Source of the DNA: Elusimicrobiales bacterium
Lineage (GTDB): Bacteria > Elusimicrobiota > Elusimicrobia > Elusimicrobiales > UBA9959
Reading direction: 5' to 3'
NCBI GenBank assembly: GCA_024681855.1
Contig: JAILAB010000020.1
Location: forward strand, 16,864-80,863
Length of the DNA stretch: 64,000 nucleotides
Numbering within the stretch: position 1 is the first letter of the stretch; every line of letters starts with the position of its first letter. Made by a program: the position numbers and the translations under genes. Positions 10,175-45,902 of the stretch are shown here, in pieces. The notes below the pieces were generated by a model that was not told the origin of the DNA, did not search any database, and saw only the letters and a program-made list of their open reading frames with translations.

Positions 10175-10372
10175 AAATCAAATCCTTAGTATTATATTAT
10201 ATCAATATAAAAAGGAGATATTTCTGCCAGGCATGGGCTTGCGCATTAAAGTTGCAAGCGCAACATTAATTCGCTGTACGTCAAAATCCGTTTTATTGCA
10301 AAAATGCCGTATTAATGCTCTCCTTTAAGGCTTTATAAATTTTTTTTTATATAACGCTTATCGTCGGAATGT

Positions 10373-10441: not shown

Positions 10442-11500
10442 ATGAAAAACTTTTTGCCTATTTTATTTACCGCGCTTATGATAATGCCGTCTTTTGCGTC
10501 AGCATCCCGCATAATTTATGGTGATGACGATCGTCAGGATTATAGCGATTCTTCTTCCGCAATGCAAAGCCTTGCTGACTCTGTTGTTTCTATTTGGGAC
10601 AAAGACTATATCCTTTCTAAAGACGGCAAGTCATATTTGGCTACTGTCACTTTCCAGAAACGCGTTGGCCTTTGCGATGGAGAGGTTTTTGGCCAGCAGC
10701 CTGCCGGCGCCTTCTGCTCCGGCACGCTCGTGGGAGAGGATCTTATACTTACGGCAGGCCACTGTATAACTGATAGTGCATCTTGCGCAAAAGCCCGCTT
10801 TGTTTTTGGCTTCAATGACAAAGCTGTAAAGAACATAAAGCCTTTTAACGAGAATGTTTCGCTTGTTCCGGTTGATAATAATGATGTTTATTCCTGCTCA
10901 TCCATAGTGAAGCGTAACCTGGGCAAACAGCATAACAGTACAGTTGGCATGATATGGGATTATATCATGTACCAGCATGACAAGGTAGCCCCTGACTATG
11001 CTCTTATAAAACTTGACCGCAAAGTCAAAGGACATAAACCTCTGCCTGTTGAAAGGTCGAAAAACCTGAATGAAGGTGACAGTATATTTGTCATAGGGCA
11101 TCCCGTGGGACTGCCTGTAAAGGTTGCAGGCGGTGCGACTATACGCAACAACAAGCCTAAAAATTTCTATCTTACGGATCTTGATACCTTCGGAGGAAAC
11201 TCCGGCAGCGCTGTATTCAGTTCTGCTACAAACAAGATAATAGGAATACTTGTCCGCGGCAGCACTGATTTCGTGGATGCTCCCGATGGACGCAGCTGCA
11301 AGATTCAGAACCGTGTTCCGCAGGATTACGGCAAAGGAGAAGCTGTAAACCGCCTTGCTCCAGTGCTTAAATACATACCTGAAATTAGCGGCGCTAAAGC
11401 TGAGTCTTCTGATGTTTCAGCTAATGAGGTGGTTTCTGTGCCTGCCCCCAAGATTGAAAAAGACAAGAAATCAAAAACAAATATTAAAGTTGGATTCTAA
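10442..11500 (+). CDS. secreted trypsin-fold (S1 family) serine endopeptidase
   Basis: 352 aa. Signal peptide MKNFLPILFTALMIMPSFASA. Catalytic His in LTAGHC, Asp in PDYALIKLD, Ser in GGNSGSAVF. GGAGGAG RBS. Confidence 0.8.
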   Translation: MKNFLPILFTALMIMPSFASASRIIYGDDDRQDYSDSSSAMQSLADSVVSIWDKDYILSKDGKSYLATVTFQKRVGLCDGEVFGQQPAGAFCSGTLVGEDLILTAGHCITDSASCAKARFVFGFNDKAVKNIKPFNENVSLVPVDNNDVYSCSSIVKRNLGKQHNSTVGMIWDYIMYQHDKVAPDYALIKLDRKVKGHKPLPVERSKNLNEGDSIFVIGHPVGLPVKVAGGATIRNNKPKNFYLTDLDTFGGNSGSAVFSSATNKIIGILVRGSTDFVDAPDGRSCKIQNRVPQDYGKGEAVNRLAPVLKYIPEISGAKAESSDVSANEVVSVPAPKIEKDKKSKTNIKVGF

Positions 11501-39667: not shown

Positions 39668-40939
39668 ATGAAGACAATAACAATAATCCTATCCGCTTTT
39701 TTTATGTTTTCTGCTGCGTTTGCTGTATATGGGGCAGAAAGCAGTACAGCCGTCAATGAAAAACAAAAAGAAAATCAAGAGGGTAAAATTATGGAAATGG
39801 CAATGAGAGCAAATGAAATTGCTTTCAGCTTTTATAAGCAGAAAGCTGCAGGGAAAGAGGAAAATTTCTTTTTCTCTCCGTATAGCATGAGGTCTGCTTT
39901 TGCCATGGCCCGTGAAGGCGCAAAAGGAAAAACGGCAGAAGAAATGGATAAGGTTTTTTTCTTTCCGTCTGAAAATGCGGAAATGCGGCTTGAAATGCAG
40001 TCAATGGCAGAAGCCGCAGCGCAGGCTGCAGAAGGTTCTGAATTTTCCGATGCAAATTCATTTTGGGCGCATAATAATTACACATTTCTGCCTGAATATG
40101 TTTCTGCCCTGAAAAAACATTATAATGCCGCAGCTGAAAATGCTGATTTCGTAATGGATGCTGAAGGCGCAAGGAAAAAGATAAATTCCTGGGCTTCTGA
40201 TAAAACAAACGGCATAATAAAGGAACTTCTTGCCAAAGGCTCTGTAGACCCTCTTACAAGGCTTGTTCTGGTCAATGCTGTTTATTTCAAGGGAACATGG
40301 CAGAAGGCTTTTGATAAAAAAAATACGTCCAAGGAAAATTTTACCCTTAATTCAGGAAAGAAAGTTAAAACAATGTTTATGCAGCACAGGAAAGCTGTCC
40401 GCCTGCAATATGCAGAGACAGAGGAGGGACAGTTTCTGGCCATGCCTTACAGGAAAGGAGAAGATTTGTCAGGCGGCTGGCTGGAAATGATGATAATACT
40501 GCCGAAAGATAAAGAGGCCTTCGCAGATATTGAAAACAATATTTCTTCGGAATACATAAACGAAATGAGAAGGAAAATGACAAGAACTGAAGTAGAGCTT
40601 TATCTGCCCAGGTTCAAATTTGCGGTTTCGCATGAGCTTGATTCCAGCCTTAAATCAATGGGAATGCCGCTTGCCTTTTCAGATAATGCAGATTTTTCAG
40701 GCATGACCGGCAATAATGATTTAAAAATAGGATATGCCATACAGAAAGCATTTATAGATGTTTCCGAAGAAGGCACGGAAGCGGCAGCCGCTACCGCTGT
40801 TGTAATGGCGTTCAGATCAGCAGCTGTGAGGCAGCGGCCGGAAGTTTTCCGCGCGGACAAACCGTTCATATTCCTTATCAGGGATGCAAAAACAGGATTG
40901 ATATTTTTTATGGGCAAATTGGAAAAACCGACGGCATAG
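39668..40939 (+). CDS. serpin (inhibitory type, predicted P1 Arg), with signal peptide
   Basis: 423 aa with MKTITIILSAFFMFSAAFAVYGA. Serpin blocks NFFFSPYSMRSAFAM, INSWASDKTNGIIKELL, LVLVNAVYFKGTWQ. Hinge/RCL is EEGTEAAAATAVVMAFR|SAAV, followed by FRADKPFIFLIRD. Confidence 0.9.
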   Translation: MKTITIILSAFFMFSAAFAVYGAESSTAVNEKQKENQEGKIMEMAMRANEIAFSFYKQKAAGKEENFFFSPYSMRSAFAMAREGAKGKTAEEMDKVFFFPSENAEMRLEMQSMAEAAAQAAEGSEFSDANSFWAHNNYTFLPEYVSALKKHYNAAAENADFVMDAEGARKKINSWASDKTNGIIKELLAKGSVDPLTRLVLVNAVYFKGTWQKAFDKKNTSKENFTLNSGKKVKTMFMQHRKAVRLQYAETEEGQFLAMPYRKGEDLSGGWLEMMIILPKDKEAFADIENNISSEYINEMRRKMTRTEVELYLPRFKFAVSHELDSSLKSMGMPLAFSDNADFSGMTGNNDLKIGYAIQKAFIDVSEEGTEAAAATAVVMAFRSAAVRQRPEVFRADKPFIFLIRDAKTGLIFFMGKLEKPTA

Positions 40940-43123: not shown

Positions 43124-44431
43124 ATGAAAAAAATCATTTTATTTTTTGTTTCAATGTTCTGTTTTTTTCAGCTTTCCTATGCCGGAAGCTATGAAAGCAT
43201 CGCATCGTCATTAGTGAATTCGGGAGCGGGGCTTAAAGGCGAGAAGCTTGTAATTATTCCTTTCAAGACTGGTTCTGGTCTTCCAGGATATGCGGGGGAA
43301 TCTGCTGCCCATAAGCTTCAGATAAAGCTTACCCAGGAAATTTATTATGATGTGATTACAAAGCCGGAATTTGAAAAAGCTGATGCCTGGCTGAAGGAGA
43401 ATGGGGATTCTAACAAAAATTATGCCTTGCAGCTAATGGAAAGGCTTAATGCCAAGCTTGCTGTCACTGGAGAAATTAACAGAAAGAGCGATTCTGCCGC
43501 CGAATTGAAGGTCAGGCTAATAAACCCTTTTGATAAAAAGACTATTTCAACAATTTCAGATGAAATTCCAAATGAATGGGCTTCCATTGCCTCTTCTGGC
43601 GGAGCGGAGCATGTTCCTGCCCAAGAACAGAATATGGTGCCTGCTCCTGCCGCTGGATATAGTTTTGCTTCAACTGAAAATGCCTCTGCCGGTTCTGCCA
43701 GTCAATCATATTCCTCATCTTCAGCTTATGATTATGGACGGGATTTAAACAAAAAGCGCTCTGACTATGCTTTCTTTGATATATTTTACGGTCTTTCAAA
43801 TTCCCAAAATCTAAGTATGGAATTCAAGCCTCAAAGCGGATATCTTTACGTTAAGGATTTTATAGACAGAGATACTTATGCTTCCAGTTTTGAGCTTAAT
43901 GACCTGGAGACTGATTCAAAAGGCCCAATAGGATTCCGATTTGGAATGTTCCAGGATGTCGTGGGATTTGACTTGGGATTCAGATATGCCAGTTATGAGA
44001 CAAAAGCTCAAAACGGCGAAACAAATCTTGTGAATTATTCTAAAGCCCCGTTGCCAAAAAAATATGCCATGGTTGATGTTTATGAAATGAATGGCGACTT
44101 GCTGTTCCGCTTTGTTAATTCCTCCTTTGCTGATATATACGCAGGCATTGGCCTTGGCATGAATCTTACCCATGTAGAGCTGCCTTATGTGAAAGGATAT
44201 ACAGGATTTTCAGTTAAACAGCCCCCGGTTAAGGAAACAGGCTTTGGAATGTCTTTCCGCATACCGGTAGGCGCGCGATGGAAACTTTCTGATTCAGTGC
44301 ATCTGCTTACCGAAGCATCTTTTGAAGCTTCTATGACCATGGGCGGATTTAGCAGAAATATAGTGGATGAGGATGACACCTATTATCTTTGGGGTTTCCA
44401 GACCATAGCCGGCATAGGCTTTGTGTTCTGA
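43124..44431 (+). CDS. outer-membrane protein, paralog 1: N-terminal periplasmic alpha/beta-like module plus a C-terminal beta-barrel-like domain
   Basis: 435 aa. Signal peptide MKKIILFFVSMFCFFQLSYA|GSYES. The C-terminal half alternates hydrophobic and polar residues and ends AGIGFVF (terminal Phe). Confidence 0.65.
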   Translation: MKKIILFFVSMFCFFQLSYAGSYESIASSLVNSGAGLKGEKLVIIPFKTGSGLPGYAGESAAHKLQIKLTQEIYYDVITKPEFEKADAWLKENGDSNKNYALQLMERLNAKLAVTGEINRKSDSAAELKVRLINPFDKKTISTISDEIPNEWASIASSGGAEHVPAQEQNMVPAPAAGYSFASTENASAGSASQSYSSSSAYDYGRDLNKKRSDYAFFDIFYGLSNSQNLSMEFKPQSGYLYVKDFIDRDTYASSFELNDLETDSKGPIGFRFGMFQDVVGFDLGFRYASYETKAQNGETNLVNYSKAPLPKKYAMVDVYEMNGDLLFRFVNSSFADIYAGIGLGMNLTHVELPYVKGYTGFSVKQPPVKETGFGMSFRIPVGARWKLSDSVHLLTEASFEASMTMGGFSRNIVDEDDTYYLWGFQTIAGIGFVF

Positions 44432-44452
44432 GAAAAAAATCTGATTCAGATA

Positions 44453-44484
44453 AAAGAGGCCGTTTTGTGCGGCCTCTTTTATTG
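44453..44484 (+). terminator. rho-independent terminator
   Basis: aaagaggccg-ttttgtg-cggcctcttt followed by tattg. Confidence 0.75.
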
Positions 44485-44572
44485 GGACAGGCATGGATAA
44501 CAGATGAATATTTTATCTAAAAAATAAAGCGGAGAATTAAAGATTTATACAAATAAATTTATAATGCGTAAA

Positions 44573-44582
44573 TTTTTTTTTT
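44573..44582 (+). repeat. T10 homopolymer tract in the signal-peptide codons of OMP paralog 2
   Basis: Counted directly: ATG CGT AAA (44564-44572), then ten T (44573-44582). It is the longest homopolymer I noticed by eye in the window. Confidence 0.9.
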
Positions 44583-44612
44583 ATTTTCATTTTATTTCTG
44601 CCAACTGCAGCA

Positions 44613-45902
44613 ATGGCAGGCAGCTATGAATCTCTAGCTTCAAAGTTAGCTGCGGCTGGTCAAGAGCTTAAGGGGGCCCGGCTTGCAATAATACCGTTTG
44701 ATGTGCCTGAAGGCCTGCCAGAAGTTTCCGGGGCGGAAGCAGCCCATAAGCTGCATATTGCGCTGTCAAAAAATGCTTATTATGAAATTGTCAGTGAAGA
44801 TGAATTGCGTTCCGAAGAAATATGGCTGAAAGAAAACCGGGATTCTGAAAAAAATTATGCGTTGCAGCTCATGGAGCGGCTTAATGCCAGCCTTGCCATA
44901 ACTGGCAAAATTATTGCATTGAAAAACGGAAATGCTGAAATAAAGGCAAATCTTATAAATACGAGCGAAAGGAAAATTATCGCTTCAATTCTTGAGGAAA
45001 TTCCTTTCAGTGACTGCGACAATAAAGAGAAAAGGGAAGGATTAGCTGGAATTTTGGAAGAAACAGCCGGAGATTCTCTATTCTTGCCTGCGGCATCTGA
45101 ACAGAATAAAAATGGCAGCGAAGCTGCTAAATTATGCGCAGGAACCGCCGATAGTTCTGCGGATACAGGCAGCGTATGTTTGTTTGAGGATGCAGATAAA
45201 GCAAATAAAAATACATTGAACTATTCCTTTTTTGAAATATATTATGGACTGGCAAATCAAAGTTCATTGAATATGTCTTTTTCCAGTGATATGGGGCAAA
45301 TAAACTTAGGGGATTTTAATCTCGGTCTGAGCGGATATGCAAGCAAATTTGAGTTTCGGGGATTAGAAACTTCAGCCGTTGGCCCTATTGGTTTTCGCAC
45401 GGGCTTCTTTGAAGATAAATATGGCTTAGACATTGGCATAAGGTATGCTAAATATCAGACTAAGGCTCAGCATGCCAAGCATGTCGGCTCTAATTTAGAG
45501 AATTATCCTTCCCTGCGGCTTCCTGCAGGATATGCGCAAATTTCCATAGTTGAGTTAAGTTTTGATTTGCTTTACCGTTTTATTAAGTCTTCTTTTATTG
45601 ATGCTTATGCGGGCTTAGGGTTTGGAATGAGCATGACTTATGTTGATCTTCCTCATGTAAAGGGGTATGAGCACATGTATTATAATAAGACTATAGATAA
45701 AAAGGATGAATACGACGGGGTAACTTTCAGGCTTCCCGTTGGCGCAAGGTGGAAAATAAGCAATTCGGTTCATGTTTTTGCGGAATCTTCCGTTGAGGCT
45801 TTAATCATTCGTGAGGATTTTGACTGGGATGCCTCTGGGGGAGAGAATTGCTATAAAATTTATTCGTTCAATACTGTTGCTGGAATTAGCTTCATATTGT
45901 AA
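44613..45902 (+). CDS. outer-membrane protein, paralog 2 (as assembled it lacks a signal peptide; upstream ATG 44564 is out of frame by +1)
   Basis: 429-aa ORF beginning MAGSYESLASKL..., which aligns with the mature N-terminus of paralog 1. Shared blocks include KNYALQLMERLNA, GPIGFR, RYAxYxTKAQ, PVGARWK and AGI(G/S)F(V/I). See the finding on the T10 tract. Confidence 0.65.
   Translation: MAGSYESLASKLAAAGQELKGARLAIIPFDVPEGLPEVSGAEAAHKLHIALSKNAYYEIVSEDELRSEEIWLKENRDSEKNYALQLMERLNASLAITGKIIALKNGNAEIKANLINTSERKIIASILEEIPFSDCDNKEKREGLAGILEETAGDSLFLPAASEQNKNGSEAAKLCAGTADSSADTGSVCLFEDADKANKNTLNYSFFEIYYGLANQSSLNMSFSSDMGQINLGDFNLGLSGYASKFEFRGLETSAVGPIGFRTGFFEDKYGLDIGIRYAKYQTKAQHAKHVGSNLENYPSLRLPAGYAQISIVELSFDLLYRFIKSSFIDAYAGLGFGMSMTYVDLPHVKGYEHMYYNKTIDKKDEYDGVTFRLPVGARWKISNSVHVFAESSVEALIIREDFDWDASGGENCYKIYSFNTVAGISFIL

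What the first reader, a model, noticed from the sequence alone, without database searches (positions are those of the whole stretch)
44564..44629. A T10 tract in the signal-peptide codons takes OMP paralog 2 out of frame: a candidate slipped-strand phase-variation switch, or a homopolymer error
As assembled, ATG 44564 reads ATG CGT AAA, then T10 (44573-44582), giving MRKFFFYFHFISANCSNGRQL and a stop at 44627-44629.

The long ORF starts only at ATG 44613 (MAGSYESLAS...). That is 49 nt downstream, so it is in the +1 frame. It has no RBS and no export signal, although the protein is otherwise an outer-membrane paralog.

With T9 (or T12) the frames fuse to give MRKFFFIFILFLPTAAMA|GSYESLASKL.... 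That is a textbook signal peptide with a basic n-region, a hydrophobic core and an A-x-A site. Its cleavage point matches paralog 1 (...FQLSYA|GSYESIASSL).

T10 is the longest homopolymer I noticed in the window, and it lies exactly where a 1-nt change toggles expression. Poly-T and poly-A tracts in the 5' coding region of surface-protein genes are an established ON/OFF mechanism in several bacteria.
Basis: seen in the sequence. Interest (0 to 1): 0.65.

Follow-up and report, generated by a model that had tools for sequence, protein, structure and literature searches.

The report
Strain-specific 2-base frameshift in outer-membrane gene
The T10 run is real and does cut this outer-membrane protein gene off from its export signal, but eleven other assemblies of the same gene all carry a fixed, interrupted, in-frame TTTATTTTTTTT, so this is most likely a one-off 2-base loss (a recent null allele or an assembly slip) and not an evolved on/off switch.

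Summary

The window comes from an Elusimicrobiales MAG, where the gene is annotated as a 429-aa protein with no signal peptide. Eleven other complete assemblies of the same locus (ENA, Logan, JGI; at least 5 other haplotypes; 96-99.3% nt identity) all read TTT-A-TTTTTTTT (12 nt). All are in frame and give MRKFIFFIFILFLPTAAMA|GSYES. The window equals that sequence minus 2 nt (AT/TA). So the in-frame ancestor is not T9. No tract-length polymorphism is seen, and the uninterrupted tract exists only in this MAG.

That 2-nt loss is the only indel against the closest relatives over 4.3-7 kb. All 17 A8/T8 runs inside ORFs are in frame, so the assembly is not generally prone to homopolymer errors.

The protein is a signal peptide, an LpoB/FlgO-like periplasmic domain and an 8-stranded OM barrel. 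Export is therefore essential and the T10 allele is OFF.

My estimates: real recent null allele about 0.5, assembly artefact about 0.3, genuinely switching tract about 0.12. Reads are needed to decide. This is ordinary and of low interest.

The parts
44564..44566 (+). True start codon of OMP paralog 2. It is the start used by the intact orthologues with the long leader.
   Evidence: The same ATG CGT AAA/AGA begins the 446-aa genes in L001-L005 and L007-L010.
44573..44582 (+). T10 tract. It corresponds to TTTATTTTTTTT (T3-A-T8, 12 nt) in every other assembly, so the window has a net loss of 2 nt (AT or TA) and the frame shifts.
44564..44629 (+). Frame-0 remnant: 21 codons (MRKFFFYFHFISANCSNGRQL) ending in TGA at 44627-29.
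44583..44618 (+). Rest of the signal-peptide coding sequence, now in the +1 frame (IFILFLPTAAMA). The predicted cleavage is after GCA 44616-18, before GGC 44619-21 (AMA|GSYES).
   Evidence: Direct reading; alignment with the intact orthologues and paralog 1; hydrophobicity.
44613..45902 (+). Body of paralog 2 as annotated (429 aa, NCBI MCR4820029.1, Elusimicrobiales MAG). About 44619-45011 encodes an LpoB/FlgO/TolB-N-like periplasmic domain, then a low-complexity linker, then about 45222-45899 an 8-stranded OM beta-barrel. There are no further stops or indels relative to the intact orthologues.
   Evidence: intact apart from the tract; OMP_b-brl 24.6 bits, below the 28.7 cut-off; family; CsgG/FlgO/LpoB hits in distant members; AF2 model pLDDT 76.5; Foldseek hits to LpoB with TMt 0.74 and to OmpA/OmpW/Ail/OmpT barrels.
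43124..44431 (+). Paralog 1 (435 aa), intact, 43% identical to paralog 2. Its signal peptide is MKKIILFFVSMFCFFQLSYA|GSYES. Its A7/T6/T7 runs are invariant in all assemblies.
44449..44483 (+). Strong hairpin followed by T-rich sequence between the paralogs. It is probably the terminator of paralog 1, which would make paralog 2 its own transcription unit (inferred).
   Evidence: -28.8 kcal/mol, z = -5.7, 0 of 200 shuffles as stable; conserved in L001, L012, L013 and L014. The simple terminator scan did not list it.
44484..44563 (+). AT-rich leader and putative promoter region of paralog 2. Sixty-three nt of it are absent in the 'short-leader' allele of L006, L012 and L013. In one sample it is the insertion site of an IS200/IS605-type element.
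   Evidence: No consensus sigma-70 match was found here.

Best explanation
In the lineage or sample behind this MAG, the signal-peptide region of OMP paralog 2 lost 2 nt from an ancestral, in-frame TTT-ATT-TTT-TTT. Either AT/TA was deleted in one step, or A changed to T to give T12 and the tract then contracted by 2. The result is an uninterrupted T10 and a frameshift after codon 6.

Translation from the real start (44564) now ends after 21 codons. The only downstream in-frame start (44613) yields a protein with no export signal. This protein needs Sec export, since it has a periplasmic LpoB/FlgO-like domain and an outer-membrane beta-barrel, so the allele is functionally OFF. It is a recent, strain-specific null allele, and the intact paralog 1 next door may provide redundancy.

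It is not an evolved, conserved phase-variation device. The species' normal state is a stable interrupted tract.

Shown: the frameshift, its 2-nt nature, the invariance of T3-A-T8 elsewhere, the export-dependent architecture, and the absence of other lesions.

Inferred: that the deletion is biological and not an assembly error; that the allele is non-functional; and that a T10 tract, once created, could revert (T10 to T9) or be partly rescued by RNA-polymerase slippage.
For: (1) Eleven other complete assemblies from at least 11 samples and three sources all read T3-A-T8 in frame (L001-L010, L012). This holds across at least 5 coding haplotypes (96-99.3% nt identity) and both leader alleles.

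(2) In the 15-billion-protein collection the 90% cluster has 6 members. Five are 445-446 aa with a signal peptide. Only the window's protein (P0003, NCBI MAG) is the 429-aa truncated form.

(3) The 2-nt gap is the only indel against L007-L010 over 4.3-7 kb at about 99.2% identity. All 17 A8/T8 runs inside long ORFs of the window are in frame. Paralog 1's A7/T6/T7 runs match every assembly. The assembly is therefore not generally error-prone at homopolymers. The change also removes a non-T base, which a simple run-length miscall does not do.

(4) Window-unique substitutions in paralog 2 are 5 nonsynonymous to 1 synonymous. For five neighbouring genes together the count is 3 to 4. The direction fits relaxed constraint, but it is not significant (Fisher p = 0.18-0.27).

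(5) Every full-length family member inspected starts with a classical signal peptide. The model shows an LpoB-like domain plus an OM barrel, so losing the signal peptide should abolish function.
Against: Only one assembly carries T10 and no reads can be inspected. T-rich low-complexity DNA is a known trouble spot for sequencing, consensus calling and polishing, and a MAG consensus may pick a minor variant.

The gene is otherwise perfectly intact over 429 codons. If the lesion is real it is therefore very young, and an intact body is equally what an artefact would look like. The N:S excess is not significant, and paralog 2 evolves fast at the protein level in all strains (16 codons with amino-acid changes against 19 synonymous-only, excluding the window).

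A T10 tract meets the usual screening threshold for poly-A/T phase variation (at least 10 in PhasomeIt, PMC6321876), so within-population switching cannot be excluded.
Confidence: 0.5

Rival explanations
1. Assembly, consensus or polishing artefact. The organism actually carries TTTATTTTTTTT, the gene is intact, and 2 nt were lost in silico in a low-complexity T-rich stretch.
For: T10 is seen in a single MAG contig only. Every other assembly at 99% identity is in frame. The rest of the gene carries no lesion. The neighbourhood (AAATTTATTTTTTTTATTTTCATTTTATTT) is extremely low in complexity. One other assembly (L013) breaks off inside this very T run, which shows that assemblers struggle here.
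Against: There is no other indel against the closest relatives over 4.3-7 kb. All 17 A8/T8 runs within ORFs are in frame, so there is no general homopolymer error signature. The error would have to delete 2 nt including an A, not just misjudge a run length by 1. Eleven other assemblers and samples got through the same stretch consistently.
Confidence: 0.3
2. A genuine, newly born slipped-strand ON/OFF switch. Loss of the interrupting A created an uninterrupted tract of at least 10 T. The tract now expands and contracts (T9/T12 ON, T10/T11 OFF) in this strain's population, and the MAG captured an OFF majority.
For: T10 reaches the customary poly-A/T cut-off (at least 10) used to flag phase-variable genes (PMC6321876). 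It sits where a 1-nt change toggles export of a surface protein. The same gene layout is documented experimentally for Gardnerella nanH3, where a poly-C tract lies next to the signal-peptide codons and OFF alleles are annotated without a signal peptide (bioRxiv 10.1101/2020.09.16.300947). The route via an in-frame T12 (MRKFFFFIFILF...) would pass through a functional intermediate (direct reading).
Against: No tract-length variant other than T10 is seen anywhere. All other strains keep an interrupted T3-A-T8, so the repeat is not conserved or maintained by selection. No other long tract lies in a 5' coding region in this 64 kb, and runs of at least 9 are fewer than the first-order Markov expectation (2 observed against about 7.6). 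That argues against a genome style rich in contingency loci. PhasomeIt's authors note that tracts at the cut-off may mutate at below 1e-5, which is inefficient for switching.
Confidence: 0.12
3. The gene is still expressed from the T10 allele by recoding. RNA-polymerase slippage on the T10/A10 run, or a +1 ribosomal slip on UUU-UUU-UUU-U, yields a fraction of in-frame product, so the frameshift is tolerated and not fully null.
For: Runs of 9-11 A/T are documented sites of transcriptional slippage that rescue frameshifted bacterial genes. An example is Citrobacter rodentium tssM (PMC4256274); reviews and genome-wide data are in PMC5009743 and PMC5574713. A -1 slip gives exactly the T9 message, which encodes a good signal peptide.
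Against: There is no conservation of the frameshift, since all orthologues are in frame, so it cannot be a programmed device. No stimulatory element was identified. The 0-frame codon after the run is an ordinary TAT, not a stop or a rare codon. Any rescue would be partial and incidental.
Confidence: 0.08

Closest known systems
Homopolymer (SSR) contingency loci in the 5' coding region of surface or secreted protein genes. An example is Gardnerella nanH3 poly-C next to the signal-peptide codons (bioRxiv 10.1101/2020.09.16.300947). Others are the Neisseria, Campylobacter and Helicobacter phasomes (PMC5953494, PMC6321876) and the Mycoplasma hominis vaa poly-A tract (recalled from memory; the locus is described in PMC524362).
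   Same: A mononucleotide run lies within or next to the signal-peptide codons. Tract lengths that are multiples of 3 give the full exported protein and other lengths truncate it. Automated annotation then calls a protein without a signal peptide from an internal ATG.
   Different: In those systems the uninterrupted tract is present in all strains and its length differs between and within strains (8-14 C in nanH3). Here the tract is interrupted and length-invariant in 11 of 11 other assemblies. The uninterrupted T10 is unique to one MAG.
Ordinary strain-specific frameshift pseudogenes or null alleles of outer-membrane proteins in natural populations.
   Same: A single small indel sits near the 5' end of a fast-evolving, duplicated surface-protein gene. 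Intact alleles are found in sister strains, and an intact paralog is adjacent.
   Different: The lesion happens to create a run long enough to be slippery, so reversion (T10 to T9) is easier than for a typical indel.
Frameshifts at poly(A/T) runs rescued by transcriptional slippage (Citrobacter rodentium tssM, PMC4256274; insect endosymbionts, from memory).
   Same: A run of about 10 A/T lies at the site of a frameshift in an otherwise intact gene.
   Different: There the frameshifted state is fixed or conserved and rescue has been shown. Here it is a singleton and nothing has been shown.
LpoB / FlgO / CsgG / TolB-N-like periplasmic domain proteins and small 8-stranded OM barrels (OmpA-TM, OmpW/OprG, Ail, NspA).
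   Same: In the predicted structure, residues about 20-150 superpose on the LpoB C-domain (TMt 0.73-0.74, rmsd 3.4-3.7 A). Residues about 220-446 form an antiparallel barrel that hits OmpA, OmpW, Ail and OmpT. Distant family members pass the Pfam cut-offs for CsgG and FlgO.
   Different: The two domains are fused into one roughly 440-aa protein, and that family has only 83 representatives (E <= 1e-3) among 1.84 billion cluster representatives. The window's own proteins reach no Pfam or NCBIfam cut-off. The function is unknown.

Membership tests
SSR-mediated phase-variable (contingency) locus | Uninterrupted simple repeat above the length at which slippage is frequent (poly-A/T of at least 10 in PhasomeIt) | tested here: met
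   T10 at 44573-44582 sits exactly at the cut-off quoted in PMC6321876. This is true for this MAG only.
SSR-mediated phase-variable (contingency) locus | The repeat is placed so that a unit change toggles the reading frame or promoter of a gene | tested here: met
   T9 or T12 fuses ATG 44564 to the 429-codon ORF and restores a signal peptide.
SSR-mediated phase-variable (contingency) locus | Repeat-number polymorphism between strains or within populations | tested here: not met
   Eleven of eleven other complete assemblies have the identical T3-A-T8, and no T9, T11 or T12 is found anywhere. Within-population variation could not be examined because no reads are available.
SSR-mediated phase-variable (contingency) locus | The uninterrupted repeat is conserved in orthologues, i.e. 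maintained by selection | tested here: not met
   The tract is interrupted by A in all other haplotypes and in both leader alleles. More distant homologues P0016-P0018 have no FFF run in their signal peptides.
SSR-mediated phase-variable (contingency) locus | High-frequency reversible switching | not testable with these tools
   This needs read pile-ups or culture, and the organism is known only as a MAG.
Pseudogene / null allele | ORF disrupted relative to intact orthologues | tested here: met
   The window has a 2-nt gap against the 445-446-aa intact genes.
Pseudogene / null allele | Signs of relaxed constraint, such as further lesions or raised dN/dS on the lineage | tested here: inconclusive
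   There are no further stops or indels. Window-unique changes are 5 N to 1 S, against 16 to 19 in the rest of the tree, with p = 0.18.
Pseudogene / null allele | The lesion is supported by the primary reads | not testable with these tools
   Reads are not available. The exact 429-aa product is present only in the NCBI record and is not in the gene-position index.
Programmed transcriptional slippage / recoding site | The frameshifted arrangement is conserved among orthologues | tested here: not met
   All orthologues are in frame.
Outer-membrane beta-barrel protein (OmpA/OmpW-like barrel) | N-terminal Sec signal peptide | tested here: met
   It is present in the intact orthologues, in paralog 1 and in 18 family members inspected. 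It is split off by the frameshift in the window. SignalP itself was not available, so the judgement rests on n/h/c-region inspection and hydrophobicity.
Outer-membrane beta-barrel protein (OmpA/OmpW-like barrel) | Membrane beta-barrel fold | tested here: met
   In the AF2 model, barrel residues have pLDDT of mostly about 80-97 and form 8 long antiparallel strands. Foldseek probability is 1.00 to OmpA, OmpW/OprG, Ail, OmpT and NspA. Pfam OMP_b-brl scores 24.6 bits, below the 28.7 cut-off.
Outer-membrane beta-barrel protein (OmpA/OmpW-like barrel) | C-terminal beta-signal ending in an aromatic residue | tested here: inconclusive
   Paralog 1 ends ...GIGFVF, whereas paralog 2 ends ...GISFIL, with a terminal Leu and the Phe at position -3.
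LpoB/FlgO/CsgG/TolB-N-like domain | Sequence or fold match to the domain | tested here: met
   Foldseek matches the LpoB C-domain with TMt 0.73-0.74. Distant family members exceed the Pfam CsgG and FlgO cut-offs. The window proteins themselves have no significant Pfam hit in this region.

The most novel reading that the evidence does not exclude
Loss of the single interrupting A fused T3 and T8 into a long uninterrupted poly-T. That would have created de novo a hypermutable ON/OFF switch for an outer-membrane protein in one strain of an uncultured gut Elusimicrobiales species. It would be a contingency locus caught at birth, with sister strains preserving the stable interrupted precursor.
Probability: 0.12. 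Interest if true: 0.45.

Novelty: already known. Interest (0 to 1): 0.2.

Why it matters
The main value is practical. The annotated protein MCR4820029.1 (429 aa, no signal peptide) is a truncated call. The species' real gene is 446 aa with a signal peptide.

The case also shows how comparison across independent assemblies separates a contingency locus (variable, conserved tract) from a singleton frameshift.

If reads showed mixed tract lengths, this would be a small but neat example of how a point change in an interrupted run can create a phase-variable surface-protein gene in Elusimicrobiota, a phylum where I know of no described phase variation. Otherwise it is an ordinary null allele or an assembly slip.

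Tried and rejected
(1) A JGI metagenome scan for the conserved anchor just downstream of the tract, meant as a look for frameshifted variants that does not depend on gene calls, found only the contig already held (L011 = L008).

(2) Two scans of GTDB species-representative genomes with protein alignments A2 and A4 found no relative. A3 was too divergent to make patterns. The species and its near relatives are therefore not available there.

(3) Exact-product look-ups for the window's 429-aa ORF and for the protease next to the T9 tract found nothing on record. I could not recover the source sample or compare the T9 tract between strains.

(4) I checked whether paralog 1's 425-aa calls in other assemblies hide a second variable tract. 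They do not: the DNA is identical at A7/T6/T7, and the difference is only the gene caller's choice of start.

(5) A first AF2 run with 4 sequences was unusable (pLDDT 34). It was replaced by a 19-sequence run.

(6) The N:S test for relaxed constraint was not significant.

(7) An alternative in-frame start upstream of 44613 is rejected. There is no ATG/GTG/TTG between the TAA at 44562 and 44613. Only ATT codons occur there, and a product started at one of them would lack a basic n-region (direct reading).

(8) The sigma-70 and terminator consensus scan gave nothing above shuffle expectation in the leader.

Full report
**Observation.**
- ATG 44564 is followed by CGT AAA and then ten T (44573-44582).
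- That frame reads MRKFFFYFHFISANCSNGRQL and stops at TGA 44627-29.
- The long ORF runs from ATG 44613 to 45902 (429 aa), 49 nt downstream, so it is in the +1 frame.
- Between the TAA at 44562-64 and 44613 there is no ATG, GTG or TTG in that frame.
- T10 is the longest homopolymer in the window. The only T9 (10340) is intergenic, and there are eighteen runs of 8.
- The length alone is not improbable. A first-order Markov model expects about 1.6 T runs of at least 10 in 64 kb. Runs of at least 9 are in fact fewer than expected (2 against about 7.6).
- The notable point is where the tract lies.

**Source.** The 429-aa product is identical to NCBI MCR4820029.1, 'MAG: hypothetical protein K5838_02775 [Elusimicrobiales bacterium]', on a 107,389-bp contig. 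The window is therefore a metagenome-assembled consensus, not an isolate genome.

**Comparison with other assemblies: the decisive evidence.** A search of 5.8 billion protein clusters with the T9-restored protein found only two clusters, the orthologues of paralog 2 and of paralog 1.
- The paralog 2 cluster has six members. Five are 445-446 aa and begin M(R)(K/R)FIFFIFI(L/V)FLP(T/A/S)AAMA|GSYES. The sixth is the window's truncated form.
- I fetched the DNA for all of them, and for further paralog 1 variants. This gave loci L001-L010, L012 and L013, from ENA, Logan and JGI, representing at least 12 samples.
- All are syntenic: serpin, SSF transporter, YtxH, paralog 1, paralog 2, aminotransferase, TIM.
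- They are 96-99.3% identical to the window and fall into at least five coding haplotypes besides the window.
- In every one of the eleven that cover the site completely, the stretch reads TTT ATT TTT TTT (T3-A-T8, 12 nt), in frame. L013 ends inside the run.
- The window's T10 is this sequence minus 2 nt.

So the in-frame ancestor is neither T9 nor T12. The T8 sub-tract shows no length variation at all. The uninterrupted tract is a singleton.

The invariance also holds across two different leader alleles. A long one begins ATG CGT AAA/AGA. A short one lacks 63 nt and starts at an upstream ATG (ATG AAA TTT ATT...; L006, L012, L013).

**Real mutation or artefact?**

Evidence that the lesion is real:
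- The 2-nt gap is the only indel against L007-L010 over 4.3-7 kb.
- All 17 A8/T8 runs lying inside long ORFs of the window are in frame.
- The A7/T6/T7 runs in paralog 1's signal-peptide region are identical in all assemblies.
- The assembly therefore has no general homopolymer error signature.
- The change removes a non-T base as well, which is not the usual run-length miscall.
- Window-unique substitutions in paralog 2 are 5 nonsynonymous to 1 synonymous, against 3 to 4 in five neighbouring genes. This hints at relaxed constraint, but it is not significant (p = 0.18-0.27), and the gene evolves fast in all strains.

Evidence that it could be an artefact:
- Only one assembly shows T10.
- The sequence context is extremely low in complexity.
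- Another assembler broke its contig inside this very run (L013).
- The remaining 429 codons are flawless.

Without reads this cannot be settled. I put a real, recent null allele at about 0.5 and an artefact at about 0.3.

**What the protein is, and why the signal peptide matters.**
- The two paralogs are 43% identical and align from ...A|GSYES onward.
- A profile search of 1.84 billion representatives finds a small family. There are 83 hits at E <= 1e-3, mostly 400-440 aa, and those inspected all begin with classical signal peptides.
- Distant members exceed Pfam's cut-offs for CsgG and FlgO in the N-terminal domain.
- The window protein gives only a sub-threshold OMP_b-brl hit and nothing in NCBIfam.
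- An AlphaFold model built on a 19-sequence alignment (pLDDT 76.5) shows an alpha/beta domain that superposes on the LpoB C-domain (TMt 0.73-0.74). It also shows a disordered linker and an 8-stranded barrel matching OmpA, OmpW/OprG, Ail and OmpT.
- Such a protein must be exported. The product from ATG 44613 has no hydrophobic N-terminus (best 9-residue Kyte-Doolittle mean 1.66, against 3.4-3.6 for the in-frame versions).
- As assembled, the gene is therefore OFF.
- A strong hairpin (44449-44483; -28.8 kcal/mol, z = -5.7) separates the paralogs, so paralog 2 is probably transcribed on its own (inferred).

**Mechanism.**

Best reading: a 2-nt loss in an interrupted T-rich codon string (Phe-Ile-Phe-Phe) frameshifts the signal peptide and produces a strain-specific null allele. 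The loss could be a single deletion of AT/TA. It could also be an A-to-T change giving an in-frame T12, followed by contraction.

The result is a run that sits exactly at the customary poly-A/T threshold for phase-variation screens (at least 10; PMC6321876). Two things then become mechanistically plausible. One is reversion by a -1 slip to T9, giving MRKFFFIFILF.... The other is partial rescue by RNA-polymerase slippage, as documented for Citrobacter tssM (PMC4256274). Both are inferences.

The data do not support an evolved switch. In genuine cases such as Gardnerella nanH3, the tract is present in all strains and ranges from 8 to 14 units between and within strains. Here it is interrupted and invariant everywhere else.

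**Comparison with known systems, and novelty.** The layout resembles 5'-coding-region homopolymer contingency loci. It fails two of their defining features that could be tested, namely length polymorphism and conservation of the uninterrupted repeat. It fits an ordinary singleton frameshift, either biological or technical. Nothing here is a new kind of system.

The most novel reading not excluded is a contingency locus at birth in one strain (probability about 0.12).

**Verdict.** Interest is low (0.2).

The practical outcome is that the annotated 429-aa protein is a truncated call of a 446-aa exported outer-membrane protein.

Noticed in passing
L014:2120-2826 and L006:1-161 (sample ERZ27297830); the corresponding window site is about 44484-44490: In one sample an IS200/IS605-type element is inserted between paralog 1's terminator hairpin and paralog 2. 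It carries a Y1_Tnp gene at L014:2260-2727 and has hairpin-forming CCCCCGG...CCGGGGG ends. The insertion follows ...CTCTTTTATTG, and the element itself ends ...ATATTTATTG. The two k141 contigs overlap by exactly 141 nt.
   Followed up: partly
window 44505-44569, compared with L006:140-170, L012:1380-1400 and the L013 tail: Paralog 2 has two leader alleles. A 'short' allele lacks 63 nt of the leader plus the first codons, and starts at an upstream ATG (ATG AAA TTT ATT...). This gives a 445-aa protein whose n-region is only MK. The 5' end of this gene is therefore structurally variable among strains even though T3-A-T8 is not.
   Followed up: partly
L013:4350-4365 (contig end): The WILK20-1 scaffold ends inside the T run (…ATGAAATTTATTTTT$). 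This could reflect assembly difficulty or heterogeneity at the tract in that sample.
   Followed up: no
window 10340-10348: The second-longest homopolymer (T9) lies in the divergent intergenic region about 95 nt upstream of ORF 10442-11500. That ORF looks by eye like a secreted trypsin-like serine protease, with a signal peptide and GHC / GNSGS motifs. A promoter-spacing effect is conceivable. An exact-product look-up found no other assembly to compare.
   Followed up: partly
window 43124-45902 and the family hits P0016-P0096: The fusion of an LpoB/FlgO/CsgG-like domain to an 8-stranded OM barrel defines a small, uncharacterised family. It has 83 representatives (E <= 1e-3) among 1.84 billion. 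Two scans of the GTDB species representatives, seeded from the paralogs and their closest homologues, found no relative. Paralog 2 ends in ...SFIL, not in the usual terminal aromatic residue.
   Followed up: partly
window 39668-40939: A bacterial serpin with a signal peptide (Pfam Serpin, from the precomputed annotation of the syntenic locus L001) lies three genes upstream of the paralogs and is conserved in the related assemblies.
   Followed up: no
whole window: Homopolymers of at least 9 are fewer than a first-order Markov model predicts (2 observed, about 7.6 expected), while runs of 8 match expectation (20 against about 20.6). This is consistent with selection against long runs in this coding-dense genome.
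   Followed up: partly
L002-L005 compared with window 42960: A second 2-nt length difference occurs in a T run just after the YtxH stop codon (TAGTTTTTC against TAG--TTTC). It separates haplotype group A from the window and the other strains. So short T-run length changes do occur between strains in intergenic DNA.
   Followed up: no
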